The translations under genes and the position numbers were made by a program. From IMG/VR virus record IMGVR_UViG_3300035016_000040: a stretch of DNA of 53,915 bases, one strand, 5' to 3'. Source of the DNA: a virus (taxonomy: Duplodnaviria; Caudoviricetes). A model generated the notes under the pieces. That model had not been told where the DNA came from. It ran no database searches and was given only the letters and a program-made list of their open reading frames with translations. Shown piece after piece: positions 1 to 53,152 of this stretch; within the stretch, counting starts at the first letter, position 1, and each line of letters begins with the position of its first letter.

Positions 1-1320
1 ATGCCGCGTCCCATTGCCCTCAATCCCAAGTACTGCCGCGATAAATCCAACAACCGGGCGTTCGTCACGCTCGGCGGCCGCAAGGTCAGCCTGGGCGTCT
101 GGAACACGCCCGACAGCATCGCCCGCTACGACCGGGCCATTGCCGAGTGGATCTCGCGCGGCCGCCCTGCCGTCGCGCTGCCCACGGCCGAGCCGTCGCC
201 AGCGTTCGACGGGCCGTCGGTCAACGTCATTATCGCCGGTTTCGTCGCCTGGGCCGCCAAACGGTACGGCGGCGGCGTGGTGCTCGACGGGCGCCGCCCC
301 CGCGGCGAACTGGGGAACTATTGGGACGTCCTGCGCCCGCTCCGCCGGCTGTACGGCACCACGCCCGCGATGAAGTTCGGCCCGCGGGCCCTGAAGGCGC
401 TCCGCCAGGAGATGGTCGATCGACGGTTGGCCCGGTCCCACATCAACCGCCAGGTCCTGCGCCTGAAGTCCGTCTTCCGCTGGGCGACCGAAAACGAGTT
501 GCTGCCGGCGGACGTCTACGGCGCGTTGCGGTCGGTCCGCGGTCTGCGCTACGGCGAGGATGGCGCGCTCGAGGCTGAGCCGGTCCGGCCGGTGCACGAC
601 GCCGACGTCGCCGCGGTGCTGTCCCACCTGTCGCGCCACGTCCGCGCGATGGTCGAGCTGCAGGTGCTCACCGGCATGCGCCCGGGCGAGGCGTGCGCGA
701 TGCGGATCCGCGAGATCGACACGTCGGGCAAGGTCTGGGTCTACCGACCGCCCCACCACAAAACCGCTCACCACGGCAAGACGCGCGAGATCCGGATCGG
801 ACCCCGCGCACAGGACCTGCTGCGGCCGTTCCTACGCCACCAGGTCGACGCGCACGTGTTCAGCCCGGCCGAGGCCGAGAAAGAGCGCCACGCGGCCCTA
901 CGCGACGCCAGGACAACGCCAGCAAAGCCGTGGGAGCATCGTCGGGACCGATCGACCGAACCCCGCCAGCGGGCGCCTCAGGACCACTACACGACGGCCA
1001 GCTATCGCCGAGCGATCGACCGAGCCTGCATGCGGGCGTTCCGGATGCCGGCGGAGCTGAAGGAGCCGACGACGGCCGCGGCGATCGCAGCCGACACGCC
1101 AGCAGCGCAGATCGCCCGGCGCGAGGCTCGGGCGGCGTGGCGTGCGGAGCACGTCTGGACGCCGAACCAACTCCGCCACAACGCGGCCACGGCCGTTCGC
1201 CGGCAGTACGGTTTGGAGGCGGCCAGCGTCATCCTGGGCCACAGTTCAACGAAGACGACGGAGATCTACGCGGAGATCGACACCGCGAAGGCTGACTTGA
1301 TCATGTTCGAGGTGGGATAA
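1..1320 (+). CDS. int: Tyrosine recombinase / phage integrase
   Basis: Motifs GMRPGE, HKT, NQLRH, LGH, IYAE; N-terminal arm-binding-like segment; paralog of 26305..27609. Confidence 0.95.
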   Translation: MPRPIALNPKYCRDKSNNRAFVTLGGRKVSLGVWNTPDSIARYDRAIAEWISRGRPAVALPTAEPSPAFDGPSVNVIIAGFVAWAAKRYGGGVVLDGRRPRGELGNYWDVLRPLRRLYGTTPAMKFGPRALKALRQEMVDRRLARSHINRQVLRLKSVFRWATENELLPADVYGALRSVRGLRYGEDGALEAEPVRPVHDADVAAVLSHLSRHVRAMVELQVLTGMRPGEACAMRIREIDTSGKVWVYRPPHHKTAHHGKTREIRIGPRAQDLLRPFLRHQVDAHVFSPAEAEKERHAALRDARTTPAKPWEHRRDRSTEPRQRAPQDHYTTASYRRAIDRACMRAFRMPAELKEPTTAAAIAADTPAAQIARREARAAWRAEHVWTPNQLRHNAATAVRRQYGLEAASVILGHSSTKTTEIYAEIDTAKADLIMFEVG

Positions 1321-1740: not shown

Positions 1741-1801
1741 GGGCGGATTGTTGGCCGTTTTGCGTCCTGTGGCCCTAGCGGCGGCCTGTGGACATCGCGA
1801 A
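1741..1801 (+). promoter_or_regulatory. Conserved non-coding element upstream of the pilin cassette (copy A)
   Basis: 57/61 nt identical to the reverse complement of 52678..52738; core 1754..1801 is 47/48 identical; contains two CCTGTGG direct repeats 20 nt apart. Confidence 0.75.
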
Positions 1802-1820: not shown

Positions 1821-2096
1821 ATGGAATGGGATGATGAGGATATGACTTTGCCCCGTGTGGTGAACGCGATTGTGGTTTTCGCTGCCACGATCCTTTTCGG
1901 GGTGATGATCGTCTGGTTTGGCAACGCCACCAACCAGCCAGATCAGCGGCGGTACCTAGGGGTTGCTGCCGTTTGTACCGTCGTGGCGATCGTCGGCGCC
2001 GGTGCGGACTACTACCTGAAGCACCGGAAAGCGGCGACCGAACGGCAGCGGGGATTCCCGATCGTCATCCCGATGGAGAAACACAATGAAACGTAG
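1821..2096 (+). CDS. Small two-TM membrane protein coupled to the prepilin-like gene (start may be 1788 or 1842)
   Basis: Two hydrophobic stretches (VVNAIVVFAATILFGVMIVWFG; YLGVAAVCTVVAIVGAGA); the gene end overlaps the pilin start by 11 nt. Confidence 0.7.
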   Translation: MEWDDEDMTLPRVVNAIVVFAATILFGVMIVWFGNATNQPDQRRYLGVAAVCTVVAIVGAGADYYLKHRKAATERQRGFPIVIPMEKHNET

Positions 2097-3366
2097 CGCC
2101 TTCACCCTTGTCGAGCTGCTGATCTCGGTCGCGATCGCGCTGATTCTGATCGTCGGCATTGCGACCGTGTTCAACCTGACCGGCCAGACGATCGGGGCCG
2201 GCATGGCGCTATCCGCCGTCACGCGCGACCAGCGAGCCGCGCAGACGGTTTTCAGCTCGGACTTTGAAGGGCTCGCCAGCACCAATCCCGGCCTCGTCAT
2301 CTGGAGCGGCACGACGGCTGGGTATCTCGACGCAGCGGCGCGAGATCAGGATCCGACGCGAGATGCAGCCATGACAGGCCGGACGCTCTACCGCACGGAT
2401 CGCCTGGGCATGTTCGTCACCGGCGAATTCCGCCGGCAGAGCGGCAACGATAACTACCTGACGGCTGACGTGACGGCCGAACAAGCGTATGTGTGGTACG
2501 GCCACCTGATGCTTCCGGACAACAGCGGTGCGTTCGTCTACAACAACGATCCGAACGACTGGATCACGATCGGCTCGATCAACCCGAACGCTGGCTCCAC
2601 GTTCGCGACCAACCCAAACAATTACTTCGCGCGACAGTGGACGCTAGGTCGCGTTGCGCTGTTGATGAAGTCGAAGAATGCGAGCACCGGCGAGATTTTG
2701 GACAAGGCGAACACCCCTCAATACTTCATCGACGACGACAACAGCGGCAACGATATGCGACCGTTCATGTACAACTCCCCCGACAACAACACCGCTGCAG
2801 CGGCGGCGGCTCGGGCGCGTGTCCAGCAGTCGCGATATGACCTGGTGGGGTTGAACGGCGATCCGTTCGTCCGCGTGGCGTCTAAGCTGGTGGGCACATG
2901 GTGGGATGAACTCAACTACCCGTTCCAAGCCGATCCGTACCCGTCCCGCCCGCTAACGTCTGCTGGCGCAGCGAAGACGGCCCCGCTATTTCTCCCTGGG
3001 GTGACTGAGTTCCGGGTTGAGTTCGCGGGCGATTATGCGGCACCGGTCGGGATCGACAGGGTAGACGTGGATCCGGACGGCGGAGGCGGGCTGCCTGCCG
3101 TTTCGCAGATTCGTTGGTACGGGCTAGCTCGCGACGTTAACGAGGACGGCGACCTTCTCGATCCCGAAGACGTAACGTGGCCGTACGGTACAGGCACCAC
3201 CAGTGCCGCGCAGAACGTCGTCGGCGGCACGCCCACCGTCTTCGCATGGGGGCCGACAACGACGACTCCCTGGCCGTCGCTGATCCGCATCACCTACACG
3301 ATGCAGGACGCGCAGGGGCGGCTGAACAACCCGCAGCCGGTCGAGATGATCTTCAAGGTTCAGTAG
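2086..3366 (+). CDS. Prepilin-type N-terminal cleavage/methylation protein (GspJ/PilW-like minor pseudopilin)
   Basis: Class III signal MKRSA|FTLVELLISVAIALILIVGIATVF with E5; FSSDFEG helix end; C-terminal WPSLIRITYTMQD as in J/W-type pilins. Confidence 0.85.
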   Translation: MKRSAFTLVELLISVAIALILIVGIATVFNLTGQTIGAGMALSAVTRDQRAAQTVFSSDFEGLASTNPGLVIWSGTTAGYLDAAARDQDPTRDAAMTGRTLYRTDRLGMFVTGEFRRQSGNDNYLTADVTAEQAYVWYGHLMLPDNSGAFVYNNDPNDWITIGSINPNAGSTFATNPNNYFARQWTLGRVALLMKSKNASTGEILDKANTPQYFIDDDNSGNDMRPFMYNSPDNNTAAAAAARARVQQSRYDLVGLNGDPFVRVASKLVGTWWDELNYPFQADPYPSRPLTSAGAAKTAPLFLPGVTEFRVEFAGDYAAPVGIDRVDVDPDGGGGLPAVSQIRWYGLARDVNEDGDLLDPEDVTWPYGTGTTSAAQNVVGGTPTVFAWGPTTTTPWPSLIRITYTMQDAQGRLNNPQPVEMIFKVQ

Positions 3367-3643
3367 ACGGCCATCGCGGAATCGGCAGCGGGCATTGCTC
3401 CGATGCCAGCCTCGTCTTGGCGGCTAGGAAGCAGTTGCAGATGGTGCAGCGGCTCAAGTTGGTCAGTCCCTTCGTGGCGGCGTGCTTCGGATCGTGGTTT
3501 CGAGTGGCGAACTCGCACGCCCGGCACTGGTCGCGCCTGGCCTGCACCACATCGTCGCGAGCCTGATCGACGGCGACGCCCACAGCTTGCAGTCCGGCCT
3601 TGGCCAATCCGACGACGCCCTTCGTGCAATCGGAGCAGTTCAT
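3353..3643 (-). CDS. Small Cys-rich protein at the end of the tail operon
   Basis: MNCSDC...RRDQCRACE...RCTICNCFLAAKTRLASEQCP; ATGA overlap with the upstream gene. Confidence 0.7.
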   Translation of the reverse strand: MNCSDCTKGVVGLAKAGLQAVGVAVDQARDDVVQARRDQCRACEFATRNHDPKHAATKGLTNLSRCTICNCFLAAKTRLASEQCPLPIPRWPSTEP

Positions 3644-4539
3644 ATCCCCACCTCCACGTAAGGCGTCACCGTGGCGGTGCCGCCGGTGGCGATCGTGGTC
3701 ACGGCTTCGAACGGGTCGCCGGTCGGGCACACGTTACTGTTGACGCCCGAGTATGAACCAAGGCAGTCGAAGGACGCCGTTGCAATCATTGCATCAAAAA
3801 GTGACAGGCGCGAGTACCCGGGGACCGGAATGTTGTCGAGCCTCATCGCCAGGCTCCAGAAACCACTGGAAAGGTTGCGGTTCAGTATAACTGTGACAGG
3901 AACCTCAACCTCGGCATCGGTGCATCCTCCGGGGTCTGGCTGTCCGGCATAGACCGTCGTCTGGTGACCGCGCACCAGATCGGTATGGGGATTGGTCCAA
4001 GCGGAGGCATTGAATCGCCGCAGGCAGAACCGGTTGTTGGGATTACCGCTCCACCTCGCGTAGAAGTAATCGCCGAATGACCCGTTGCGCTTAACGCATC
4101 CGCAGTTGTTCACAATTCCCGAGAACTCCACCTCGATAAAGTCTGGGGAGGAACCACAGCCCGTTACGGCGGTGGTCCTCAATGACACCGTGATGGTGCC
4201 GGTGGCGGGGGTCGTAAGCGTGTTGCTGACAGAGTACGTAACGGTGGTTGCGCTCGCGACCGTCCCTGATCCGTTGGTGAAGTTGTACCCGCTGGGGGTC
4301 GCACCGCTTACGGTGAAATTCGGCGGGAATGAAGGGTTGAACAGGTGAGGTTCAGGAAACGTGATCGTGGCAACGGTGCCGGACCGCGTGATCGTCACGC
4401 CCGTCCATGACTTCGGCAGGTTGTTGCACGGTCCGCCACAGCAGCAATCGTCGCCGTTACCATCCGACAGAATCACGTTGCCGCTGTCGTCTAGGATGAC
4501 GTTACCGCTTGCGTCGAGTAGTCGGTCACCATTTGCCAT
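3640..4539 (-). CDS. Putative tail-tip / receptor-binding protein
   Basis: Last large gene of the tail operon; Thr/Gly/Ser-rich beta sequence, CCC motif, atypical codon usage; ATG at 4539 follows the upstream stop. Confidence 0.6.
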   Translation of the reverse strand: MANGDRLLDASGNVILDDSGNVILSDGNGDDCCCGGPCNNLPKSWTGVTITRSGTVATITFPEPHLFNPSFPPNFTVSGATPSGYNFTNGSGTVASATTVTYSVSNTLTTPATGTITVSLRTTAVTGCGSSPDFIEVEFSGIVNNCGCVKRNGSFGDYFYARWSGNPNNRFCLRRFNASAWTNPHTDLVRGHQTTVYAGQPDPGGCTDAEVEVPVTVILNRNLSSGFWSLAMRLDNIPVPGYSRLSLFDAMIATASFDCLGSYSGVNSNVCPTGDPFEAVTTIATGGTATVTPYVEVGI

Positions 4540-4540
4540 A

Positions 4541-5170
4541 TCAGCATCCTCCCGATCCAGGCGTCTCGCCCGCGTCCCAGAGAACCAGCGCCCCCGTCTG
4601 ATTGTAGAACGCCAGGCCGTAGCCCGTGCCGAACGCCATGGCGCCAAGTGGGCGAGGGCGGCCGACGGCGACAGCGGTTCCAATCTCAATGTCCCCGATC
4701 GTGCTGACCGTGTACGTCCAGGATGCCGCGGTTGTCTTTGAACCACCGGCACCACCCGTTTTCGTCACCTTCACCGGGAAGATCTGCCCGGTGCCGGCGA
4801 ACAGATAGACCGGGTCGCCGCTGGCGTTGTAGCCATGCGTGCGTGCACGATAACGCTGCGGCAAGTTGGTGGCGGCGCTATACAGCCCGCTGCTCTGGTT
4901 CTGCTCGCGCGCGTTCGTCGTGCCCGTCACGGCCGGATCCACGTCGGCCCAGGCGTTGGTGACGGGGTTGAAGTAGACCAGCTTCCAGCTGTACCAGCCG
5001 GCCAGCGTACCCGTGCCCTCGGCGGTCAACTGAATCCAGAACTCATCTGACGGCACCGGCCTGCCTGGCGTCTGGCGGGTCGACCTGTAGTCGGGGTGGC
5101 GCTCGTAGTGTCGCGTGGCGGCGACGACGCGCGACGCCCCCGCTCGGTCAAGCCTCAGCTCTTCGGCCAT
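4541..5170 (-). CDS. Minor tail protein (conserved N-terminus, variable C-terminus)
   Basis: N-terminal ~125 aa closely match 49439..50035; tail-operon position. Confidence 0.7.
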   Translation of the reverse strand: MAEELRLDRAGASRVVAATRHYERHPDYRSTRQTPGRPVPSDEFWIQLTAEGTGTLAGWYSWKLVYFNPVTNAWADVDPAVTGTTNAREQNQSSGLYSAATNLPQRYRARTHGYNASGDPVYLFAGTGQIFPVKVTKTGGAGGSKTTAASWTYTVSTIGDIEIGTAVAVGRPRPLGAMAFGTGYGLAFYNQTGALVLWDAGETPGSGGC

Positions 5171-5185
5171 CTGCGGATCCTCCTG

Positions 5186-10132: not shown

Positions 10133-10163
10133 GGGGAACGCTCCTCAAATGGGGTGAAAGTGA

Positions 10164-11989: not shown

Positions 11990-12005
11990 GGCGTCACCTT
12001 GAGAT

Positions 12006-12425: not shown

Positions 12426-12506
12426 GATGCTGGATCTCCTTTGAAGGCCCGCAGCGTGCGTTAGCTCGCCGCGGGCTCGAACGGCTCGTTACTACGCTGG
12501 CACCGA

Positions 12507-13952: not shown

Positions 13953-14019
13953 GTGCAGGTCCGTTTCTGCCCCGGCTTTGGGGGCGTTCTGGTGAAATTG
14001 GCGTTCGCGGAACACCCCG

Positions 14020-17365: not shown

Positions 17366-17723
17366 GCGAGGCCTCCGCTTCGACGATGTTGTGACACGGT
17401 GGGCAGACGCTCATCAGGTTTTCCGGATCGGTGCGCTCGGGCGGCGTGCACTGCGCCAGCGGCTTCTTGTGGTGAACGTGCGACGCGAACACGCGCCGGC
17501 ACCGTTCGCAGACCGGGTCGCGGGCTAGCTTTCGCCCACGCGCTCGTTTCCACTCCGCCGAGTCGTAGAACTGCTTGGCGGCGGGGTTTCGCTGGTGCTG
17601 GTCGTAGAACCGGTCGCGTTGCCGTCGGGCCTCGCGTCCCTGCTGTGTGTGTTCATCGCAGTAGTCGCCGCGCCGCACGACGTACGCGGTGCACGTGGGG
17701 TGGCGGCAAGGGGCGCTGGGCAT
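17349..17723 (-). CDS. Terminase-associated HNH endonuclease (HK97 gp74-like)
   Basis: FYDSAEW..AR...L..DPVCERC, VHH, NLMSVCPPCHN. Confidence 0.85.
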   Translation of the reverse strand: MPSAPCRHPTCTAYVVRRGDYCDEHTQQGREARRQRDRFYDQHQRNPAAKQFYDSAEWKRARGRKLARDPVCERCRRVFASHVHHKKPLAQCTPPERTDPENLMSVCPPCHNIVEAEASRAGRP

Positions 17724-18585: not shown

Positions 18586-19303
18586 CAGTTGGCCTGAATA
18601 CTTCCTGCACCATCCAGCGGCGGTGGAACGCGTACAGCCGGGGACAGCGCGTCAGAACGAACTGTTCAATGTTCTGGCAACTCCGCAGGTTGGCCGACGA
18701 CTCGCACACGTAACGGGCGCCGCCGGTCATGCGGACCACGATCAGCTTGCAGTGGGTCCGGATCGCCTTGACGCGCTGGCCTCGCTTCAGCAGCTCCGGC
18801 ACGACGGCGTCGTAGATCCCGTTCGACGTCTTCTCGAAGTAGTAGGAAACCAACAGCGACACGCGGCGCACGTGACGTTCGTCCAGCATTCCACACAGGT
18901 CAGCGCCGTTCTGCTTGCTGAAGCCGAGCGTCGCCAGGTACAGGTCGGCGATCGCCTCGCCCTTGTGTCGTTCCAGCAGCGCCGGCACCAGGTCAAATAG
19001 CGCGTAGCGCCCGCTGATGATCCCGTGAAGGCTCTGGCCCTCCTTCGGCAGCCGCTTCAAGTGGCGATACGCGTCAGGATTTGATCGGTAATCCAAGAAC
19101 AGCCGCCGCGACGGCGTGCGGATCATCGCCCGGTCCGCAGACAGCTTGGCGGCGACGTCGATCTCGGGATGCGATTCGGTGTCGAAGTCGGGCTCATCGC
19201 CCCACGGCTGCAGCAGGTCCTTGCCGATGTCGTCGACGCTGGCGATGTCCTGAAGGGCGGCCGCGTCGAGCGATCTCACCTGGGCGAACGGGTCGGCGGG
19301 CAT
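18542..19303 (-). CDS. Phospholipase-D-superfamily (single HxK...SAN motif) protein
   Basis: RTHCKLIVV...CESSANLRSCQNIEQF; homolog at 35785..36507. Confidence 0.7.
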   Translation of the reverse strand: MPADPFAQVRSLDAAALQDIASVDDIGKDLLQPWGDEPDFDTESHPEIDVAAKLSADRAMIRTPSRRLFLDYRSNPDAYRHLKRLPKEGQSLHGIISGRYALFDLVPALLERHKGEAIADLYLATLGFSKQNGADLCGMLDERHVRRVSLLVSYYFEKTSNGIYDAVVPELLKRGQRVKAIRTHCKLIVVRMTGGARYVCESSANLRSCQNIEQFVLTRCPRLYAFHRRWMVQEVFRPTGEQHRNHKPPGCAG

Positions 19304-19422
19304 GGGCTGAGTTTTCGTTGCGGGGGGATACCCCCCTCTGCGGACGGTTCACAAAAAATGCGACAGACCACCGTTCGGTCGGGACGGGGTGGGGTCATTT
19401 TTCCTAAAAAGCACCCCCCGGC
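19304..19422 (-). other. Conserved non-coding element at the start of the late operon (candidate cos/pac or late promoter)
   Basis: Ordered blocks CCGGGGG, GACCCC, CCGAA, CATTTTTT, ACCGTC, GGGGGG(C)TATCCCCC shared with 35679..35784. Confidence 0.5.
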
Positions 19423-19446
19423 ACCCCGCCATTCTGGCAGCACGGT

Positions 19447-19488
19447 AAAAAATGCCCACGACGGCGGCACGTTACCCGCCGTCGTGGG
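19447..19488 (-). terminator. Intrinsic terminator upstream of the late operon
   Basis: 13-bp stem CCCACGACGGCGG/CCGCCGTCGTGGG followed by a T6 tract on -. Confidence 0.65.
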
Positions 19489-19661
19489 GCTCCGGAGTGG
19501 GGCCCTCGGCCACGCTGGTAGGGCCGACGCCTACGCAACATGGATCGGACACGCGTGAATCAGGTGGTGGAACGGGTCGCGGCAAAAGCGCTCCCCTCTA
19601 CCTATAAGCGTGAGATTTAAGGTTTCTGTAAACAGCGGCGAACGCGTAGCGCCAATGGCAC

Positions 19662-20420
19662 TTATGATGGCCTACCACTGCGGCCAACCTTCCGCCTGCG
19701 AGCACGTCGACGCCGCCGCCTGCGTGGCTGCTGCTGACGCACGGCCGGCCCGTGCTGTCGCTCAATGGCGCCTTCACGTTCGCGACGGTGTCGCTCGACC
19801 GTGCGCGGGTTTGCGTTGCGCCACGCCGCGTAGATCGCGCTGACGATGTACGGGTTTCCCCTGCCGCCGAGCGTGTCCTGCTCTGGGTCGGCTTGGTAAG
19901 CGCGACGGATGTCGTCGAACACCCGATGGCGATCGTCGCGTGACTCCTGGGCGGCCAGGTAGAGCGCAAGCCGTCCCGGCCGTGGTCCGAGGATGATGTG
20001 CTCGGGCACGTCGTTACGCGCTCGCTGTGACCGAACCGGCTTCGGCTCAGGTAGGCGATTTGCCAGGAAGCTGTGTCGGATGTCGGCCAGCGCCATACTG
20101 ATGGCCGGGATCGTCACGTTACGCAGGACCGCCAGCTCCTGCTGTGAGAACCCGCGCACGTAGTGATCGACCAGGAGCGAGCAGCGTCGGCGGGTGAAGG
20201 TGCTGGTGAGGCGCAGCACGGCGTCGCGGTCTATGGAGAACATCAACGCGAACGAACACCGGCCGTACGGCCATCGGTCCGACGGCATCTCGTAACTGCT
20301 GTCGCCCATGATGCCGCGCGAGTAGTCGATGCCCGGCTTGAACGAGACGCCAATCGCCCTGCGACCATCGGCCGGCCTGTTCGGTTGGTCTCGCGTTGCT
20401 CGTCGTTTGCTGCTTGCCAT
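19662..20420 (-). CDS. Sigma-70 region-4-like HTH protein (putative late regulator)
   Basis: HYVRGFSQQELAVLRNVTIPAISMAL; similar to the C-terminus of 31451..32767 (LPEPKP/LPDPKP). Confidence 0.65.
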   Translation of the reverse strand: MASSKRRATRDQPNRPADGRRAIGVSFKPGIDYSRGIMGDSSYEMPSDRWPYGRCSFALMFSIDRDAVLRLTSTFTRRRCSLLVDHYVRGFSQQELAVLRNVTIPAISMALADIRHSFLANRLPEPKPVRSQRARNDVPEHIILGPRPGRLALYLAAQESRDDRHRVFDDIRRAYQADPEQDTLGGRGNPYIVSAIYAAWRNANPRTVERHRREREGAIERQHGPAVRQQQPRRRRRRRARRRKVGRSGRPS

Positions 20421-25976: not shown

Positions 25977-26145
25977 CGCCCTGGACACCGGTCTTTGACC
26001 GTCGCCGGGCTGAGGGTTAGAACGGGGTTATTCTCCAATTGGAGAACAACCCGTGGAAGTAGGTGGTTCTGGCCGACACCGAAGCCCGCGAGAAAGCCTG
26101 AAAAAGCAGGCGTTTTCCGCTAGGTCGTGATTCCCCCGTGACGCA

Positions 26146-26186
26146 TGACACGCTGGGGGTCACAGGTTCGAGCCCTGTACCGCCCA
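26146..26186 (+). other. att core: 3' half of tRNA-Val(GAC)
   Basis: TGACAC GCTGG GGGTC ACAGG TTCGAGC CCTGT ACCGCCC A gives anticodon loop to discriminator with an intact T-arm; no 5' acceptor strand or D-arm upstream; 118 bp before an integrase. Confidence 0.85.
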
Positions 26187-26304
26187 TGACCATAACTCAC
26201 GCCGAATGCTGAATTAGCATACCTGCCAATGGTTGGCAGTGCGGCCGAAAACCCCTGACTAAAAACGGAAGATTCCGTTTTTCGGGGCCATCGGAGCACT
26301 CGCC

Positions 26305-27609
26305 ATGCCGAAGCTATCCCCCGGAAAAGTCCCGAAGTACCGACTGCATAAGCAATCGGGCCGCGGCATCGTCACGATCCACGGCAAAGACAAGCTCCTG
26401 CCCGGCAAGTACGGGTCACCGGAGAGCCGCAGGGAGTGGGCGCGCCTCACCACCGAATGGCTTGCCAGAGAGGGAATGCCGCCCGCCCCGGAAAACGGAA
26501 GAACGGAATCGGAACCCCTGACCGTCGCCCGCCTGGTGGTGCAATTCTGGCGACACGCCAAAACCTACTACCGCGGCACGAACGGCGGGATCAGCCACGA
26601 GGCATATCATTACCGCGACGCCCTGCGCCCGGTTGTGCGGTTGTACGGGGCTACGCCTGCCAACAATTTCCAAGGGCCAGCGCTGGAGGCTGTGCAACGC
26701 GAGATGATCCGGCTCGGTTGGTGCCGAAACTACGTCAACCGCCAAGTCAGCCGGGTGCGGCACGTCTTCACATGGGCGCTGGCCAAAGGGGTAGTAAACG
26801 CCGACGTAGTGGTCGCACTGCGGGCGGTCACCGGACTGAAGAAGGGCCGCAGCGGAGCGCGTGAGTCGGGTAAGGTGAAACCGGTGGCCGATGCCCATAT
26901 CGCGGCCGTGCTGTCTCACCTGTCGCCAACGGTTCGCGCGATGGTGGAGTTGCAGTCCATCACCGGCATGAGGCCCGGCGAGCTGTGCGACTTGCGCGGG
27001 GTGGATCTGGACATGAGCCGCACGCCTTGGACCTACCGCCCCAGCACCCATAAGACCGCGTATATGGATAAAGACCGGAGCATCGACCTAGGCCCGCGTG
27101 CCCGGGCGATAATCGAGCCGTTCCTACGGGCTGACGTGAATGCCCACATCTTCAACCCTGCCGACGCTGCTGCGGAAGGCCGGCGACGCCGCGGTGAGAC
27201 GCGCAAGACGCCAGCAAGCTGCGGGAACGCCCCCGGCACCAACCGCAAGCGCCGCCCAAAACGACGGCCCGGTCATCGGTTCGACGTCCATGCCTACCGC
27301 CGGGCCATCGCCCGCGCCTGTGAGACTGCTTTCCCCTTACCGTCGACCCTGGGGCCGCGCTCTGGTGAAAGTCGCCTAGCATGGCGAGAACGGCTAACGC
27401 CAGCTGAGCAGGCCGCGGTGAAGGCGTGGCGCAGGGAGCATCATTTCCACCCGCACCGGTTGCGACATTCGGCAGCGACCCGCTGGCGAGCCGATCATGG
27501 GCCGGATGCCGCGCTCGTGCTGCTGGGTGATTCAAGCACGAGGATGATTGACGTTTATGCAGAGAAAGATCGGCGGCTGTCGTCGTCGATCATGGAAAAG
27601 ATCGGTTAG
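26305..27609 (+). CDS. int: Tyrosine recombinase / phage integrase
   Basis: GMRPGE, HKT, HRLRH, LGD (usually LGH), VYAE; N-terminal PKYRLHKQSG. Confidence 0.95.
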   Translation: MPKLSPGKVPKYRLHKQSGRGIVTIHGKDKLLPGKYGSPESRREWARLTTEWLAREGMPPAPENGRTESEPLTVARLVVQFWRHAKTYYRGTNGGISHEAYHYRDALRPVVRLYGATPANNFQGPALEAVQREMIRLGWCRNYVNRQVSRVRHVFTWALAKGVVNADVVVALRAVTGLKKGRSGARESGKVKPVADAHIAAVLSHLSPTVRAMVELQSITGMRPGELCDLRGVDLDMSRTPWTYRPSTHKTAYMDKDRSIDLGPRARAIIEPFLRADVNAHIFNPADAAAEGRRRRGETRKTPASCGNAPGTNRKRRPKRRPGHRFDVHAYRRAIARACETAFPLPSTLGPRSGESRLAWRERLTPAEQAAVKAWRREHHFHPHRLRHSAATRWRADHGPDAALVLLGDSSTRMIDVYAEKDRRLSSSIMEKIG

Positions 27610-48520: not shown

Positions 48521-49420
48521 ATGGCATGGATCAAGGTGAAAGAGCAGGGCCAATTGGCCGAGAGCCAACAGACCACCGACGAGAAGACCGCCAAGCGCGT
48601 GTTTGTCGCGGTGTCGGACGTAAACACGACCAGCGTCGCCGCGGAAACGGCCAGCTTCGGGGGCGTGACGGTTCCGGTCTTGGGGGCGGGCCATCCCGAC
48701 GACGGCAACCGCAAGGTGAAGTCCGTCAGCGCGTCCCCCGACGCCGAGAGCCGCAAGGTGTTTACCGTCGAGGTCGAGTATAGCGACAAGCTGTCACTCG
48801 TCGCGCTTGACCCGAACCCGTTGGACCGGCCCGCCGAAGTGTCGTGGGACTTCGACGACGCGACCGTGCCCTACTTCACTGACCGCAGCGAGACGCCCAA
48901 GCCCGTGGTGAACAGCGCCAAGGAACGGTTTGAATCCTACCTTGAACGCGAGACGGGCAGCATCACGGCGACGGTCACGAAGAATATCCCCGCCGCCGGC
49001 GCAGGCTCGTACAGCGCCGCCACGGCGCTGAGCCTCAAGGACACACTCAACGGCGGCACGATCACGGTCGACGGCGTGAGCATCAGCGCGGGGCAGGCCA
49101 AACTGAAGTGCTGGACCGTGGGGCCGGTGCAGAGCGAGACGGTCAATGGCGTGGTGGTGAACTACCGCCAATCGAAGATCCTCTACCAGTTTCGCGAGAC
49201 GTGGGACCACGTTGTGGAGGACCGCGGCTACAACGAGAAGGATGGCACGACGGGCAAGGTAAAGCCGATCCTGAAAGGCGACAAGCCGCCGACGCCGGTT
49301 GACACGCCGTGGCCACTGGACGGCGCAGGGGCGAAGAAGGCCAACATCAGCGACGAGCCGGAGCCGCTGACGTTCAAGCCCTACGCGTCGGCCGCACACG
49401 GCACCCTGCCACTAGCCTAG
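48521..49420 (+). CDS. Minor tail protein (distal tail / hub candidate)
   Basis: Homolog of 5186..6088. Confidence 0.75.
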   Translation: MAWIKVKEQGQLAESQQTTDEKTAKRVFVAVSDVNTTSVAAETASFGGVTVPVLGAGHPDDGNRKVKSVSASPDAESRKVFTVEVEYSDKLSLVALDPNPLDRPAEVSWDFDDATVPYFTDRSETPKPVVNSAKERFESYLERETGSITATVTKNIPAAGAGSYSAATALSLKDTLNGGTITVDGVSISAGQAKLKCWTVGPVQSETVNGVVVNYRQSKILYQFRETWDHVVEDRGYNEKDGTTGKVKPILKGDKPPTPVDTPWPLDGAGAKKANISDEPEPLTFKPYASAAHGTLPLA

Positions 49421-49438: not shown

Positions 49439-50035
49439 ATGGCCGAGAGACTTTCATTTTCACGGGATGGCGCGTCGCGCGTCGTCAGCGCCACCCAGCA
49501 CTACGAGCGCCACCCGGACTATCAGGCGACCCGGCAACAGCCGCCCCGTCGCAACACCAGCAACGACGAGTTCTGGATTCAGTTGACCGCCGAGGGCACG
49601 AGTGCGCTGGTCGGGTGGTACAGCTGGAAGCTCGTTTACTTCAACCCGGTCACCAACGCATGGGCCGACGTGTCGCCAGCCGTCACTGGCACGACGAACG
49701 CGCGCGAGCAGAACTTGACGACGGGGCTATACAGCGCCAGCGCCCCGAAGCGATACCGCGCGCGGATGAACGGGTACAACGGCAGCGGTGCGCCGGTCTA
49801 TGTGTTCTTCGGGGGAGGTGCTAGTACCCCCTTGGCCGCCCACAATCAGGGCGTCGTCGTCGCGGCGGCACCGACGTTCATCAACGCGATCAATGGCATC
49901 ACATTCGCCGTAAATGGTACGGGCGTCGATCTGGACAACGGCATTCCTGCGGGCACTGGTCTGGGGAAGGTGCTTACGCTGATAACCGAAGACGGTAGCG
50001 TGAAGGATTGGGAGTATCCGCGGAGCATCCCATGA
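49439..50035 (+). CDS. Minor tail protein (conserved N-terminus, variable C-terminus)
   Basis: Homolog of 4541..5170 up to VYVFFG. Confidence 0.7.
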   Translation: MAERLSFSRDGASRVVSATQHYERHPDYQATRQQPPRRNTSNDEFWIQLTAEGTSALVGWYSWKLVYFNPVTNAWADVSPAVTGTTNAREQNLTTGLYSASAPKRYRARMNGYNGSGAPVYVFFGGGASTPLAAHNQGVVVAAAPTFINAINGITFAVNGTGVDLDNGIPAGTGLGKVLTLITEDGSVKDWEYPRSIP

Positions 50036-51570
50036 GCAATCTCTATTCGATCGCAGTCATGGGGCCGATTTGGGAGCGGGTGCGGCAAAGGGAGCGAGAG
50101 GGGTTCGGCTCCTTCAATCAGGGCACGATCACCGTTCCGGAACTTGGTGCGTGTTTGGCTTACGGGAGATCCCATGAGCCGAGGTTTTCGACTGACTGCT
50201 TTTCGATTCGGGCATTGCAAGATTGGCTAGAGGGCGCTTGCATAGCCTTTGCGCCCGCAGACATTGACCCTCCGACGAACGACTTTGAAAATTACACACT
50301 CGCGTCATGGCGGGCCGCAGCAGGGATTCATCCTGGCGGGTTCCGGAGGAAAGCACCGCGTAGCTTCGGGGTCATCGCAGGCGATTTCACCACGACCACA
50401 GACGCCTATGGTAACTCTGTTAGCGAGGGAGCAATTGGTTATGGGCTACGCGAAATCACGTCCTTCTCTAGCCCCGGAACCGCTGGCGACCATGCATTTT
50501 TCGGAACGCCTGGCAACGTGCTTCGATGCGTAACGAGCGGATCGTGGACGACGGCCACTACCGGCTACTCCGAAGTGCAGACCATCCGCATTCTGGGTGG
50601 CGTTCCTAGCAGCGGCACGTTCACCCTAACCTTCGCCGGCTCGACCACCACCGCGTTGAATTACAACGCAACTGCGTCCCAAGTGGGATCTGCCTTGGCG
50701 ACAGTACTTACCCCGCTGGGCCTATCGGCTTCCGTCACGGGGTCGGCGTTGCCTTCGGGCACCATCACGGTAACCTTTTCCGCATCGCGACCCCTACCCA
50801 AGATGACGGTCGCCAGTTCGAGCATTAACGCCGGCACGGTCACGGTTGCCCGTACCGTCCATGGACACGGCCGCATGGCCGACTGCGGCGGCAAGTACCG
50901 ATACGAAAGCGGCGTCTGGGTTCCGCATCGGGCGACCTCCACAACGCCCGCCGGAATTGACGTGCTCGACTCAGCCGAAGGCACGCTGCCGTACGGTGTT
51001 CATCAACCGATGGACTATCTCTTTGATGGGCTTCGGGACGAGATTGAAGCGGGCTTGGCGAAGTTGACTCGGACGATTAGAAGAAACTCAGGCTTTGCGA
51101 CCGTTGTCGGGCCGAGATGGAACACAAAGAACAATCTCGGCCTTGAAGGATCCCTGTCGTCCCAAGAAGCAGCCGATGCAAGCTGGTCATTCAGCCGGAA
51201 TCAGACACTTCTCCAAGCTATTTCTAATAACGTCTCCAGAGGGTCGAGTGCCGACAATTTGCTCTTTAGCGCCAGCCGCTGGCAACCTTTGGCCTACAGA
51301 ATCCCCGCATCTGTGGCCACGACCCGAACCGTGAACTTCTATTTCAACGTAGAAGCTGATGTATTTGAGCCGATGGGGGATAATGTTGTATTGGGGCTGA
51401 ACGTCTTGACGGGCGGCGGAACCACGGCGGCTTTAGATTTGGCAACAACCTACGGCGACATCAGTTCAACGCCGACCTGGCCACCGACCCCCACCACGAA
51501 TCACACAAATCGCATCGCAGGCTACAGTCTCTTTGATATAAACGTCGTCACCGATTGGGATTTCACATGA
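50032..51570 (+). CDS. Putative tail-tip / receptor-binding protein
   Basis: Last gene of the tail operon, lower GC; EVQTIRI...GTFTLTF.G.TT..LNYNA module; no visible similarity to 3640..4539. Confidence 0.6.
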   Translation: MSNLYSIAVMGPIWERVRQREREGFGSFNQGTITVPELGACLAYGRSHEPRFSTDCFSIRALQDWLEGACIAFAPADIDPPTNDFENYTLASWRAAAGIHPGGFRRKAPRSFGVIAGDFTTTTDAYGNSVSEGAIGYGLREITSFSSPGTAGDHAFFGTPGNVLRCVTSGSWTTATTGYSEVQTIRILGGVPSSGTFTLTFAGSTTTALNYNATASQVGSALATVLTPLGLSASVTGSALPSGTITVTFSASRPLPKMTVASSSINAGTVTVARTVHGHGRMADCGGKYRYESGVWVPHRATSTTPAGIDVLDSAEGTLPYGVHQPMDYLFDGLRDEIEAGLAKLTRTIRRNSGFATVVGPRWNTKNNLGLEGSLSSQEAADASWSFSRNQTLLQAISNNVSRGSSADNLLFSASRWQPLAYRIPASVATTRTVNFYFNVEADVFEPMGDNVVLGLNVLTGGGTTAALDLATTYGDISSTPTWPPTPTTNHTNRIAGYSLFDINVVTDWDFT

Positions 51571-52464
51571 TTAAGGCGCGACCGCCCCGAAGTTCGTGAT
51601 ATCGTCATCGGTGCCGTACTTCCGATCCTTGCCGGCGGCGATCAGGATGTAGGTATCTTTGCTGCGCGGGGTGCCGATGGCATTGCTCCCGCCGCTCAGG
51701 GTCGCATTCTTGAAGTACGGCAGGATATCCACGTCGCCTTTCATCGGCTTATCGCCAATCAGCCCCCAATCCTGCAAGCCGCCCGTCGTCGCTGCGTTGA
51801 AGTAGGGCGCGAGGTAGGCGACCTCGTACTGATAGTTTCGCGCCGCGCCGTTCTCATCCTGACCAGCACGGGTAACGATTCCCGATGCGCCGCTACGAGC
51901 ACGCAGGTAGAGCACGGGCAACGGCTCGCCACCGAAGCCATCTAAAAATTCGGGAATGATGGTGTCAGCCGCGCCGAACGCGACGTAGGGCTTGGCACCC
52001 AGCCGGGCGTCGCTCGCTTCGATGTACGCCGGGAACTGCTTCGGCGCGGTACCAGGATTAAGCGATGCCGGACCGCGGCCCACGTAAGCCGGTTCGTAGG
52101 TGAAGGTGTCGGGGGTCGTGTCGCGGTTCAGGTTCAGTCCGCCCGTCAACGAAAGAACAAGGCTTTCAGACATCGTGATAAGCTGGCCCTGCGTCGGGAG
52201 GCCCGCCAGCGGAACGTTCGTTGCCGGCGGGGTAAGGTAGTGCTGGGTGCCAATACTGTCGTTGGGGAACACACCCGGGTAGGCGCGGAAGTCGGCGTGG
52301 TAACGCTCGATCCCGCTCACCAGCGTCGAAATGTTCTGCTGGCTGTTGGCGACGTTGGCCGACGTGCGGATCTTAGACACCGTCGGCACGAGTATGCCGA
52401 TCAGGACGGCAATGATGCCGATGACCACGAGCAACTCGACCAAGCTAAAGGCGCTACGCTTCAT
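51571..52464 (-). CDS. Prepilin-type N-terminal cleavage/methylation protein (GspG-like pseudopilin)
   Basis: MKRSA|FSLVELLVVIGIIAVLIGILVPTV; GIERYHADFRAYP; C-terminal AGKDRKYGTDDDITNF as in GspG-type proteins. Confidence 0.88.
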   Translation of the reverse strand: MKRSAFSLVELLVVIGIIAVLIGILVPTVSKIRTSANVANSQQNISTLVSGIERYHADFRAYPGVFPNDSIGTQHYLTPPATNVPLAGLPTQGQLITMSESLVLSLTGGLNLNRDTTPDTFTYEPAYVGRGPASLNPGTAPKQFPAYIEASDARLGAKPYVAFGAADTIIPEFLDGFGGEPLPVLYLRARSGASGIVTRAGQDENGAARNYQYEVAYLAPYFNAATTGGLQDWGLIGDKPMKGDVDILPYFKNATLSGGSNAIGTPRSKDTYILIAAGKDRKYGTDDDITNFGAVAP

Positions 52465-52675
52465 TTCGACCTCGAAAGTAAATGGCCACCAATCCGCCGA
52501 TCAGCAAGCACAGCGACACCCCACCAATAGCATACAACCGGTAGCCTGTTTGTAGCCACCTCAACAACGGATCGACGGCCGAAAGCGAACGGGGCCACGC
52601 GCTCAGGATGACAGCGATCGTGAGTCCGGCCAGTACGCAGGCCATTACCCTTGTTGACACTTTGGCTGCTTCCAT
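52454..52675 (-). CDS. Small two-TM membrane protein coupled to the prepilin-like gene
   Basis: MACVLAGLTIAVILSAW and LYAIGGVSLCLLIGGLVAIYF; ends NEA-stop overlapping the pilin ATG by 11 nt. Confidence 0.65.
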   Translation of the reverse strand: MEAAKVSTRVMACVLAGLTIAVILSAWPRSLSAVDPLLRWLQTGYRLYAIGGVSLCLLIGGLVAIYFRGRNEA

Positions 52676-52677
52676 TC

Positions 52678-52738
52678 TTCGCGATGTCCACAGCCCGCCG
52701 CTAGGGCCACAGGACGCAAAACGGCGAACGATTCGCCC
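52678..52738 (-). promoter_or_regulatory. Conserved non-coding element upstream of the pilin cassette (copy B)
   Basis: 57/61 identical to 1741..1801. Confidence 0.75.
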
Positions 52739-52744
52739 CACCGC

Positions 52745-53152
52745 CTACACCGAGGCCGGTTTGCCCTTCACACCCAATGCGGCCCGCTGCACGTCGTCCG
52801 GCTGGGCCAGCAACCACGCCGCGACCGCCTCAACGGCTTCAGCACGCTCTACGCCCCACCGCTGGCAGAGTTGGTAGACGCTCGTAACCCTTGGCTTTCG
52901 GAAGACGGGCACCGCTACGGGCGTGCTCGACCACGCTGCGTCCAATTCATCGGGCGTCATATCGAGCGCCTTGGCGAGCCTCGAATAAGAACCGGTCTGA
53001 ACCGTGTCGGCAGTGGGCAACCGTTCAATGCGGATGATGAACCGATCGGAAACGCGGGCACGTTCCGCCAGTTCCTTCCGCGACCAGCCCCGCGTTCGCC
53101 GGGCCGCGAAGATGTAGTGGCCGAAGTGGATTTGCTTTTTCGCTGCTATCAC
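52745..53152 (-). CDS. XRE-family HTH repressor
   Basis: FGHYIFAARRTRGWSRKELAERARVSDRFIIRIE...RLAKALDM. Confidence 0.85.
   Translation of the reverse strand: MIAAKKQIHFGHYIFAARRTRGWSRKELAERARVSDRFIIRIERLPTADTVQTGSYSRLAKALDMTPDELDAAWSSTPVAVPVFRKPRVTSVYQLCQRWGVERAEAVEAVAAWLLAQPDDVQRAALGVKGKPASV

What the first reader, a model, noticed from the sequence alone, without database searches (positions are those of the whole stretch)
51571..52464. The two phages carry different pilin classes, each paired with a different tail-tip protein
Seen: the B pilin (297 aa) has GspG-like features (Y...F..YP after the helix; AGKD..YGTDDDITNF C-terminus). The A pilin (426 aa) looks GspJ/PilW-like (F..DF, WPSLIRIT). 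The adjacent tail-tip genes are also non-homologous. Each pilin abuts the tail operon tightly: stops are adjacent at 51570/51571 in B, and there is a 14-nt convergent overlap at 3353..3366 in A. Inference: receptor-binding protein and decoy pilin travel as one exchangeable block, and each pilin may mimic the subunit its own tail binds.
Basis: partly seen in the sequence, partly recalled or inferred. Interest (0 to 1): 0.75.

Follow-up and report, generated by a model that had tools for sequence, protein, structure and literature searches.

The report
Prophage copies of host pilus subunits
Two neighbouring prophages in a Phycisphaerae genome each carry their own copy of a different subunit of one host pilus-like filament, most likely to alter that filament so that rival phages cannot use it; the principle was recently shown in Pseudomonas.

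Summary
Two syntenic siphovirus-like prophages sit in tandem at tRNA-Val, bounded by three exact 45-bp repeats. Each carries a prepilin gene inside its borders, convergent on the end of the tail operon.

The two pilins are different classes. Pilin B's model is closest to EpsG/PulG (Z 6.2/5.4). Pilin A's is closest to XcpW/GspJ/EpsJ (Z 8.0-8.6, next 3.5).

New here: both are full-length homologues of subunits of one host operon on contig C44. The operon runs T2SSF, six prepilins, then a 1554-aa protein. B matches the first prepilin (51%) and A the last (65%).

A third, unrelated prophage on C60 carries a sister of pilin A (72%) beside a different last tail gene.

All three share a cassette: conserved 5' element, small 2-TM ORF, 11-nt overlap, prepilin. 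The TM ORF type follows the pilin class. The tail-tip type does not, so strict tail-tip/pilin coupling is not supported.

Best reading: a lysogeny-expressed subunit mimic giving superinfection exclusion, as for P-FimU and P-PilA (PMC12952977). I rate it a new variant of a known kind. Function is untested.

The parts
51571..52464 (-). Prophage B prepilin, 297 aa. GspG-like class. Homologue (51% identity) of the first prepilin of the host C44 operon.
52454..52675 (-). Small 2-TM ORF of cassette B (about 73 aa from MEAAKV; the maximal ORF runs from 52741). Its last 11 nt overlap the pilin start. Unrelated to the TM ORF of A and C60.
52678..52738 (-). 61-bp conserved 5' element of the cassette, 93% identical to 1741-1801. 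It begins with a hairpin plus T-run directly after the HTH gene stop.
52745..53152 (-). XRE-type HTH protein (135 aa), cI-like by position. Co-oriented with and directly upstream of cassette B; divergent from the + strand genes that start near 53454.
50032..51570 (+). Last tail gene of prophage B (512 aa), a putative receptor-binding protein by position only. It is an orphan apart from a repeated Ig-like domain at about residues 140-280.
49439..50035 (+). Conserved tail gene (198 aa). Its 5' half holds the left conserved anchor of the variable block.
2086..3366 (+). Prophage A prepilin, 426 aa. GspJ/PilW-like class. Homologue (65% identity) of the last prepilin of the host C44 operon and sister (72%) of the C60 prophage pilin.
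1821..2096 (+). Small 2-TM ORF of cassette A (91 aa from MEWDDEDM). Homologous to the C60 cassette ORF (35% identity, E 2.1e-7). Its last 11 nt overlap the pilin start.
1741..1801 (+). 61-bp conserved 5' element of cassette A.
3353..3643 (-). Small Cys-rich ORF. ATGA overlap with the tail-tip stop codon. Overlaps the pilin A 3' end by 14 nt. Present in A only.
3640..4539 (-). Last large tail gene of prophage A (299 aa), a putative receptor-binding protein by position only. Unrelated to B's.
4541..5170 (-). Conserved tail gene (209 aa), counterpart of 49439-50035.
26143..26187 (+). Middle copy of the 45-bp att repeat (3' end of tRNA-Val GAC). The other copies lie at window -161..-117 and 55392..55437, outside the window. 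It separates prophage A from prophage B.
1..1320 (+). Tyrosine integrase of prophage A.
26305..27609 (+). Tyrosine integrase of prophage B (41% identical to A's).

Best explanation
Each prophage carries a moron-like cassette: a conserved 5' element, a small 2-TM protein, and a translationally coupled prepilin. The prepilin is a phage-evolved copy of one structural subunit of a host T2SS/T4P-like filament.

Prophage B copies the subunit at the GspG (shaft) position. Prophage A and the unrelated C60 prophage copy the subunit at the GspJ/PilW (tip) position.

Proposed mechanism, all inferred:
1. The cassette is expressed in the lysogen.
2. The phage pilin is processed and assembled by the host machinery in place of, or alongside, the host subunit.
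3. This changes the exposed C-terminal loops of the filament, so that pilus-binding phages, including relatives of the resident ones, can no longer adsorb (superinfection exclusion by receptor replacement).
4. The 2-TM protein is a cognate accessory of its pilin.

Shown: phage location, homology to the host operon, class, intactness, purifying selection, the pattern of divergence, and the shared cassette.

Inferred: expression in lysogeny, incorporation into the filament, that the filament is a phage receptor, and the role of the TM protein.
For: - Inside prophage borders: exact 45-46-bp direct repeats at -161, 26143 and 55392, the first overlapping the 3' end of tRNA-Val. Each unit has an integrase, and terminase, portal, major tail and tape-measure genes are present.
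- Only the C44 operon holds full-length paralogues among the prepilin-like ORFs of the genome. That operon is T2SSF, six N_methyl proteins, then a 1554-aa protein with an HHH_3 match.
- The host families are essentially single copy elsewhere. All 73 other matching family genomes of 120 searched have one G-like match; G000 has two. Among 300 other genomes of the class, 21 have a J-like match, 19 with one and 2 with two; G000 has three. One of the two double cases, G147, holds a second host operon and not a phage. In the other, G078, the two matches are partial hits on different contigs; I did not look at it.
- The closest relatives of the phage pilins are the host's own lineage. Phage A plus C60 form a clade (100/99) nested with the host copy (100/98).
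- dN/dS is 0.20-0.30 in all four pairs, with dS about 1.
- The N-terminal helix and core are 70-95% identical to the host. Divergence is concentrated in C-terminal loops (phA about 320-400, 10-60%; phB about 200-260, 15-30%). Both phage J-types lack 11- and 28-aa host insertions and share one derived segment. That stretch includes low-pLDDT blocks in the model.
- In B the cassette follows a cI-like HTH gene on the same strand, divergent from the early genes.
- The same 11-nt overlap joins TM ORF and pilin in all three cassettes.
- Precedent read in the abstract and sections 7 and 15-18 of PMC12952977: P-FimU replaces FimU at the pilus tip and blocks tip-binding phages, and P-PilA in Xylella prophages is about 50% identical to host PilA.
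Against: - There is no expression data. The only run listed is the DNA source.
- No sigma-70-like promoter was found by the consensus scan.
- Nothing shows that any phage here uses this filament as its receptor. The tail-tip proteins are orphans.
- The host operon cannot be assigned to T4P or T2SS. No ATPase or secretin gene is adjacent, and the genome has 13 T2SSE and 5 secretin matches elsewhere.
- All three cassettes come from one metagenome-assembled genome.
- None was found in 140 other family genomes with the TM ORF of A, nor as extra pilin copies.
- None of 8 distantly related prophages, 2 of them cut by contig ends, has a prepilin gene near its tail end.
- P-FimU carries added loops, whereas these J-types have lost loops. 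P-FimU has no coupled TM gene.
Confidence: 0.55

Rival explanations
1. First reader's model. Tail-tip (receptor-binding) protein and pilin form one exchangeable block, and each pilin mimics, as a decoy, the very subunit its own tail binds. Pilin class and tail-tip type should therefore co-vary across prophages.
For: - Between A and B the tail tip, pilin and TM ORF all differ. They lie between two conserved anchors: 4898-5044 / 49714-49568 at 90%, and 1741-1801 / 52738-52678 at 93%.
- The genes are tightly packed.
- In Pseudomonas a variable tail protein (PTP4) sets sensitivity to P-FimU variants, and both are very diverse (PMC12952977, sections 16 and 18, read).
Against: - The J-class pilin of A and its sister in C60 sit beside unrelated last tail genes (best E 1.1).
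- C60's tail protein has, if anything, a weak C-terminal likeness to B's tip (E 0.002).
- The cassette boundary shared by A and C60 ends at the pilin stop codon.
- The TM ORF, not the tail tip, follows the pilin class.
- Only three cassettes exist, so this is a counter-example and not a statistic.
Confidence: 0.15
2. Provirus pilins build or remodel a filament for the benefit of the host or of the co-resident phage, as with SNJ2 in Natrinema. There, provirus-encoded pilins use the host machinery, form the dominant surface filaments, promote biofilm and motility, and serve as receptor for the co-resident virus SNJ1.
For: - Two related prophages are co-resident in tandem and carry complementary subunits, shaft and tip.
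- The pilins are intact and under purifying selection.
- Precedent: PMC12426801, abstract and outline only read.
Against: - Each phage brings only one subunit of a seven-gene host set, not a filament of its own.
- The J-class subunit is a minor tip component by structural class. It cannot form a filament alone; this rests on general knowledge of GspJ/PilW.
- Divergence from the host copy is focused on loops, which fits escape from recognition better than gain of adhesion.
Confidence: 0.12
3. Dominant-negative block. The phage pilin, together with its TM partner, poisons assembly or retraction of the host filament, so that no receptor is displayed. This would be functionally like the non-pilin inhibitors Tip, Aqs1, Zip and PfsE.
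For: - The phage J-types have lost two host loops.
- A coupled small membrane protein is present.
- Over-expression of FimU alone disrupts pilus assembly, as stated in PMC12952977 section 18 (read).
- That paper also considers truncated phage PilA copies as possible assembly inhibitors (section 17, read).
Against: - Full-length conservation of the globular core and a dN/dS of 0.2-0.3 across the whole protein argue for a working subunit and against a mere plug.
- The invariant residues of both families are kept in the alignments whose first rows are the phage proteins.
Confidence: 0.12
4. Passenger DNA. The pilin genes are recently captured host genes with no role for the phage.
For: The nearest relatives are the host's own operon genes.
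Against: - Three prophages, two of them unrelated to each other, keep the same cassette with a conserved element, a coupled TM ORF and an identical short leader.
- dS is about 1 with dN/dS 0.2-0.3.
- The host operon lies on another contig, not next to the att site.
Confidence: 0.04

Closest known systems
P-FimU of F10-like Pseudomonas aeruginosa prophages (Sztanko et al., Cell Rep 2026, PMC12952977; abstract and sections 7, 15-18 read)
   Same: A prophage-encoded homologue of a minor, tip-located pilin of the host's own filament. It is encoded in or at the tail gene cluster, diverges in surface features, and sits beside highly variable tail proteins. It was proposed, and there shown, to replace the host subunit and block adsorption.
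   Different: - A different minor-pilin class: GspJ/PilW-like here, not FimU (GspH-like by recall).
- 65-72% identity to the host copy, against 28%.
- Loops lost instead of added.
- The gene lies after the last tail gene, on the opposite strand, and is coupled to a 2-TM ORF behind a conserved element. P-FimU lies between the tail tube and chaperone genes.
- The host is a Phycisphaerae (Planctomycetota) bacterium.
- No function has been tested here.
P-PilA of Xylella fastidiosa prophages and PilA-like genes of virulent phages (same paper, section 17 read; its Table S3 and Figure S6 not seen because supplements are closed)
   Same: A phage-borne homologue of the major filament subunit, about 50% identical to the host copy and found in different phage types. 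Pilin B is 51% identical to the host's first operon prepilin.
   Different: Pilin B resembles T2SS-type GspG, not PilA, by structure and C-terminal motif. It sits in the same cassette platform as a tip-class pilin in a sibling prophage.
SNJ2 provirus pilins PilA1/PilA2 of Natrinema (PMC12426801; abstract and outline read)
   Same: Provirus-encoded type IV pilins that use the host machinery, in a host with two co-resident temperate viruses.
   Different: These are archaeal major pilins that form their own filaments and act as receptor for the other virus. Here there are single subunits of a bacterial multi-subunit operon.
Non-pilin prophage inhibitors of type IV pili: Tip, Aqs1, Zip, PfsE (seen in the listings and abstracts; details recalled)
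   Same: Prophage-encoded superinfection exclusion aimed at the pilus.
   Different: Those are small proteins that bind PilB, PilZ or PilC, not structural subunit mimics.
Pilin-specific accessory genes tfpY/tfpZ next to pilA alleles of P. aeruginosa (recalled; no call)
   Same: A small membrane protein encoded with a particular pilin allele and co-varying with it, as the 2-TM ORF does here in 3 of 3 cassettes.
   Different: No sequence relation was tested. Those genes lie downstream of pilA on the chromosome. Here the ORF lies upstream, overlaps the pilin start, and is phage-borne.

Membership tests
Type IV pilin-like (prepilin) superfamily | N-terminal class III signal: short basic leader, G/A at -1, F at +1, E at +5, hydrophobic helix | tested here: met
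   MKRSA|FSLVELL and MKRSA|FTLVELL. PF07963 scores 23.0 and 23.3 bits against a cut-off of 21.2. TIGR02532 passes its cut-off. Ala at -1 is also seen in host-family members in the alignment.
Type IV pilin-like (prepilin) superfamily | Long N-terminal alpha-helix packed on a C-terminal beta-sheet domain | tested here: met
   AF2 models have pLDDT 85.7 and 86.9, with helices 8-59 and 6-61 followed by strands. Nearly all matches for B with Z of 2 or more are pilins or pseudopilins.
GspG major pseudopilin (TIGR01710 / T2SSG), for pilin B | Score over the curated family cut-off | tested here: not met
   TIGR01710 scores 35.9 bits against a cut-off of 88.85, over residues 5-64 only. No Pfam T2SSG match at E of 0.1 or better. 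At 297 aa the protein is about twice the 134-position model.
GspG major pseudopilin (TIGR01710 / T2SSG), for pilin B | Fold closest to solved GspG proteins, and a C-terminal GxDxxxGTxDDIxN-type loop (motif recalled as the GspG calcium site) | tested here: inconclusive
   The best two matches are EpsG 4lw9 (Z 6.2, rmsd 3.2, 103 aligned) and PulG 5wda (Z 5.4). Type IV pilins follow at 4.2 or less. Foldseek found nothing at E of 1e-3 or better. The motif AGKDRKYGTDDDITNF is present and nearly invariant in the family.
GspG major pseudopilin (TIGR01710 / T2SSG), for pilin B | Gene directly after gspF, first of the pilin genes (tested on the host orthologue) | tested here: met
   The host homologue L020:4234-5337 follows the T2SSF gene 2953-4209.
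GspJ / PilW class minor pilin, for pilin A | Fold closest to solved GspJ-class proteins | tested here: met
   XcpW 3nje (Z 8.6, rmsd 2.8, 132 aligned), TTHA1219 5g23 (Z 8.4), GspJ 3ci0_J (Z 8.2), EpsJ 2ret_B (Z 8.0). The next match scores 3.5. Foldseek found nothing at E of 1e-3 or better.
GspJ / PilW class minor pilin, for pilin A | Match to a curated GspJ/PilW sequence model | tested here: not met
   No GspJ or PilW model matched at E of 0.1 or better in Pfam or NCBIfam. Only N_methyl, TIGR02532 and a sub-threshold Verru_Chthon cassette protein C hit (22.2 bits against 256.5) appeared. One distant database homologue (P0199) is named T2SS protein J by its source.
GspJ / PilW class minor pilin, for pilin A | Gene directly before the GspK/PilX-position gene (tested on the host orthologue) | tested here: met
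   The host homologue L020:10116-11552 is followed by the 1554-aa gene 11566-16230, which has an N-terminal hydrophobic segment and an HHH_3 match. That this large protein is GspK-like rests on position and recall.
Prophage-encoded pilus-subunit mimic defence (P-FimU / P-PilA kind) | Encoded within a prophage | tested here: met
   att repeats, integrases and structural genes. The C60 element is also listed as an IMG/VR viral genome.
Prophage-encoded pilus-subunit mimic defence (P-FimU / P-PilA kind) | Homologue of a structural subunit of the host's own filament | tested here: met
   51%, 65% and 72% full-length identities to genes of the C44 operon or to each other.
Prophage-encoded pilus-subunit mimic defence (P-FimU / P-PilA kind) | Expressed from the prophage in the lysogen | not testable with these tools
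   No RNA run was available for this DNA. The gene order cI-like HTH, element, TM ORF, pilin in B is the only, indirect, hint.
Prophage-encoded pilus-subunit mimic defence (P-FimU / P-PilA kind) | Incorporated into the filament and blocks adsorption of filament-binding phages | not testable with these tools
   Needs bench work.

The most novel reading that the evidence does not exclude
The three prophages share a plug-in platform: a conserved 5' element, a cognate 2-TM accessory, a fixed overlap with the MKR(S/N)(A/G)F leader, and a swappable pilin body. Through it, temperate phages of this Phycisphaerae lineage exchange mimics of different positions of one host filament, independently of their tail genes. 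The tandem siblings A and B divide the work, one re-surfacing the shaft and the other the tip. The double lysogen would then exclude both side-binding and tip-binding competitors, and the TM protein would give the phage subunit priority over the host's.
Probability: 0.2. Interest if true: 0.7.

Novelty: new variant of a known kind. Interest (0 to 1): 0.5.

Why it matters
Receptor replacement by a phage-made pilus subunit was first shown in 2024-2026, for one minor pilin (FimU) in one species. Its authors suggested that it may be widespread.

This locus extends the idea in four ways:
- to a distant, barely studied phylum (Planctomycetota, class Phycisphaerae);
- to a second minor-pilin class (GspJ/PilW-like);
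- to shaft and tip mimics of the same host operon in sibling prophages;
- to a conserved cassette with a coupled membrane protein that moves between unrelated phages.

It also gives a concrete lead on what the abundant pilin-like genes and filaments of Planctomycetota may be under pressure from. And it offers a natural three-way comparison for asking whether the pilin follows the tail protein or moves on its own.

All of this is computational and comes from one metagenome-assembled genome.

Tried and rejected
**Co-variation across relatives**
- Anchor-protein scans of genome contigs and viral contigs found nothing.
- The genome search found the anchor in 10 of 61 genomes, G000 included. I fetched 8 of the 9 foreign loci; G003, which is unpublished, was not fetched beyond the automatic locus L010 and was not analysed.
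- None of the 8 has a prepilin motif. Two of them, L017 and L019, are cut short by contig ends.
- The metagenome scan with pilin A gave one distant 28% hit on a 2.4-kb contig.
- The genome-contig scan with the pilin B alignment was swamped by N-terminal-only matches across Planctomycetota. I did not analyse its 80 loci.
- The viral scan with pilin A returned the C60 element itself, which is 100% identical.

**Binding**
- Complex prediction with the host J-position pilin (residues 40-474, with alignment) and tail tip A returned 'no answer' (score 0.00). I do not count it either way.

**Expression**
- No RNA holder is listed. The only run is the probable DNA source.

**Structure and family searches that led nowhere**
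- Foldseek against PDB gave no match at E of 1e-3 or better for either pilin.
- The Atlas look-ups of both tail tips were uninformative; the Atlas's own models have pLDDT 0.38 and 0.44.
- Homologues of tail tip B cover only its Ig-like repeat.

**Regulatory elements**
- Rfam gave no credible family at the conserved element.
- The consensus scans found no sigma-70-like promoter, and terminator-like sites were no more frequent than in shuffles.

**Other prophage-like sites in G000**
- The C19 terminase-like gene lies in a non-phage neighbourhood with an ordinary host prepilin 3 kb away.
- C46 has no prepilin near its phage-like genes.

**Rejected ideas**
- The pilins are host genes flanking the prophages: rejected by the att repeats.
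- The second J-like copy in G147 is phage-borne: rejected, because it is a second host operon.

**Papers**
- The searches found no paper on pilin genes in Planctomycetota prophages.
- Supplements of PMC12952977 (Table S3, Figures S4-S6) could not be seen. They may list further phage pilin families.
Full report
**What is in the window**

The window is G000:C20:227391-281305, from a 5.84-Mb, 64-contig, 64% GC genome. Source names of the closest database homologues place it in the Phycisphaerae, phylum Planctomycetota.

A self-comparison of the window plus 15 kb on each side shows an exact 45-46-bp direct repeat at three places: window -161..-117, 26143..26187 and 55392..55437. The first copy overlaps the 3' end of a tRNA-Val(GAC) gene at -191..-118.

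Each of the two units between the repeats starts with a tyrosine integrase on the + strand: 1-1320 and 26305-27609, 41% identical to each other. The two units are syntenic, with 40-72% protein identity over about twenty genes. These include terminase, portal, capsid-like, major tail and tape-measure genes. Their bodies are inverted relative to each other. These are therefore two related siphovirus-like prophages integrated in tandem at one att site. Everything between the repeats belongs to a prophage, both pilin genes included.

**Checking the observation**

- Both proteins carry a prepilin signal (PF07963 over its cut-off) and share nothing beyond the first 22 residues.
- The last large tail genes, 50032-51570 and 3640-4539, are unrelated (best E 0.11).
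- One correction: in A the gene that overlaps the pilin 3' end by 14 nt is a small Cys-rich ORF, coupled to the tail-tip gene by an ATGA overlap. It is not the tail-tip gene itself.

**What the pilins are**

AlphaFold2 models built on alignments of 41 and 40 sequences are confident (pLDDT 85.7 and 86.9).

- Foldseek found nothing at E of 1e-3 or better for either model.
- The exhaustive VIA search puts four GspJ-class minor pseudopilins on top for pilin A: XcpW Z 8.6, TTHA1219 8.4, GspJ 8.2 and EpsJ 8.0. The next match scores 3.5.
- For pilin B the two major pseudopilins come first: EpsG Z 6.2 and PulG 5.4. Type IV pilins follow at 4.2 or less.
- No curated GspG or GspJ sequence model passes its cut-off.

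I therefore call them GspG-like and GspJ/PilW-like in class, not members of those families.

**The host counterpart**

- A tblastn of both pilins against the whole genome finds full-length paralogues on contig C44. Pilin B matches C44:50452-51330 (51%). Pilin A matches C44:56151-57545 (65%). Pilin A also matches a further copy on C60 (72%). All other prepilin-like ORFs match only over the N-terminal helix.
- The C44 genes belong to one operon: a T2SSF platform protein, six proteins with the N-methylation motif, and a 1554-aa protein.
- The pilin B homologue is the first prepilin of that operon. The pilin A homologue is the last, directly before the large protein.
- Across the family these host genes are essentially single copy, and where both match the same contig they lie roughly 5-7 kb apart. 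All 73 other matching genomes of 120 searched have one G-like match. Among 300 other genomes of the class, 21 have a J-like match, and 19 of those have exactly one.
- Of the two genomes with two J-like matches, G147 has a second host operon and no phage. G078's two matches are partial hits on two different contigs, which I did not examine.
- Among the genomes searched, G000 is the only one in which extra copies were traced to prophages.

**A third prophage**

- C60:30263-31669 (-) is a prepilin 72% identical to pilin A. It overlaps by 4 nt, convergently, the end of a 736-aa gene that closes a run of + strand phage-like genes.
- IMG/VR lists this region as a viral genome. Locus L031 is 100% identical to C60:20269-41573, so it is the same DNA and not independent.
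- This element shares almost nothing else with A or B.
- In a maximum-likelihood tree of 19 family members, the A and C60 pilins are sisters (100/99). Together with the host copy and one metagenomic protein they form a clade (100/98).

**The cassette**

All three prophages share the same arrangement upstream of the pilin.

- A conserved non-coding element: A against B 93% over 61 bp; A against C60 81.5% over 65 bp; B against C60 89% over 37 bp. It is found nowhere else in the genome.
- A small ORF with two hydrophobic segments.
- An 11-nt overlap in which the pilin ATG lies inside the end of the small ORF.
- A very short leader: MKRSA in A and B, MKRNG in C60. The host leaders are longer.

The small ORFs of A and C60 are homologous (35%, E 2.1e-7). 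B's is unrelated to them. The small ORF therefore follows the pilin class in all three cassettes.

I checked both.

**How the phage copies differ from the host copies**

- All four pairs show dN/dS of 0.20-0.30, with dS about 1, so the genes are maintained.
- Phage and host J-types are 70-95% identical over the first 300 residues or so. Identity drops to 10-60% in phA residues about 320-400, where both phage proteins lack host insertions of 11 and 28 residues and share one derived sequence. That stretch includes low-pLDDT blocks in the model.
- Pilin B keeps the helix (75-80%) and the C-terminal GTDDDITNF loop. It falls to 15-30% in residues about 200-260.
- In residues about 200-280, pilin A is host-like where the C60 copy has diverged. 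This looks like recombination between the phage and host copies.

**Where the cassette sits**

- In B the cassette lies directly behind an XRE-type HTH gene on the same strand. That gene is divergent from the + strand genes that run to the right att site. This is the place where a lambdoid phage keeps its repressor and exclusion genes; the comparison is from general knowledge.
- In A it lies behind the integrase.
- No sigma-70-like promoter was found by the consensus scan, and no RNA data exist.

**The interpretation**

- The first half is true of the A-B pair in a physical sense. Everything from the 3' half of gene 4541-5170 / 49439-50035 to the 61-bp element differs, between two well-conserved anchors.
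- The C60 prophage is a counter-example to coupling. The same pilin lineage sits beside an unrelated last tail gene. That gene has, at most, a weak C-terminal likeness to B's tip (E 0.002; a lead only).
- Three cassettes allow no statistics, and none of my searches found a fourth.
- The second half, binding, could not be tested. The one co-folding job gave no answer. The tail-tip proteins are orphans whose receptor-binding role rests on gene position alone.

**Comparison with what is known**

- Sztanko et al. (PMC12952977; abstract and sections 7, 15-18 read) showed that F10-like Pseudomonas prophages encode FimU-like minor pilins. These enter the pilus tip, keep it working and block tip-binding phages. 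A variable tail protein sets sensitivity. Xylella prophages carry PilA copies about 50% identical to the host's.
- The present locus is the same kind of thing in a distant phylum. The differences are listed under Closest known systems.
- A second precedent is the archaeal provirus SNJ2, whose pilins serve the co-resident virus and the host (PMC12426801; abstract read). It supplies the main rival reading.
- I found no paper on pilin genes in Planctomycetota prophages.

**Verdict**

- The mimic idea is well supported at the level of sequence and structure.
- The tail-tip coupling is not supported.
- The function, superinfection exclusion by subunit replacement, is the most likely reading at about 0.55 but is wholly inferred.
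- Because the principle is already published, I rate this a new variant of a known kind, of moderate interest.

Noticed in passing
window -161..-117, 26143-26187, 55392-55437; integrases 1-1320 and 26305-27609: Tandem integration of two related prophages at tRNA-Val(GAC). Both integrases face the same way, but the phage bodies are inverted relative to them. In A the integrase lies on the pilin side of att; in B it lies on the early-gene side. The int-att module has evidently been flipped in one of the two lineages.
   Followed up: partly
L032 (IMGVR_UViG_3300005614_000044) 4449-5390 and about 10010-11836; L025 (IMGVR_UViG_3300022690_001394) 152-874 and 9929-11062: Two unrelated IMG/VR contigs (58% and 34% GC) hold a distant homologue of the conserved post-tape-measure tail protein 48521-49420 (28% identity; E 4.8e-17 and 1.7e-10). 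A few kb downstream on the same strand each has prepilin-like genes: a roughly 610-aa J-like one in L032 and two short ones in L025. Pilin genes may recur with this tail module in other phyla.
   Followed up: partly
window 2086-3366 against C60:30263-31573 and C44:56115-57551: Mosaic pattern. In residues about 200-280 pilin A is nearly identical to the host copy, while its sister in C60 is only 25-45% identical to pilin A. This suggests gene conversion between the prophage and host copies.
   Followed up: partly
window 51301-51570 (tail tip B residues 424-510) against C60:29901-30233: Weak C-terminal similarity between tail tip B and the 736-aa last tail protein of the C60 prophage (25% over 112 aa; pairwise E 0.002).
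   Followed up: no
window 50450-50870 (tail tip B residues about 140-280): An Ig-like domain of the TFTLTF..T..L.YNATA..V..AL type. It is repeated two to three times in about 25 database proteins, two of which carry PF25681 (Phage_TTP_17). It is the only part of tail tip B with relatives.
   Followed up: partly
G000 whole genome; C44:48952-62229: The genome has 90-114 prepilin-like ORFs, 13 T2SSE matches, 5 secretin matches (4 over the cut-off) and 14 T2SSF domain matches. The C44 operon has a platform gene but no adjacent ATPase or secretin gene. A 1554-aa protein with HHH_3, CBM_5_12 and weak LTD matches takes the GspK position.
   Followed up: partly
G000:C46:1259-1719 and 19170-19829: A further phage-like region of lower GC lies at the start of contig C46. 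It has a terminase-like match and a homologue (39%) of the Cys-rich ORF 3353-3643. The contig ends about 1.3 kb beyond, so a cassette there, if any, would be cut off.
   Followed up: partly
window 15761-17410 (-): The phrog_9 terminase match of prophage A is reported with one TGA inside the matched range. The range extends past the start of ORF 15764-17365, so the stop may simply lie upstream of the start codon. I did not check this further.
   Followed up: no
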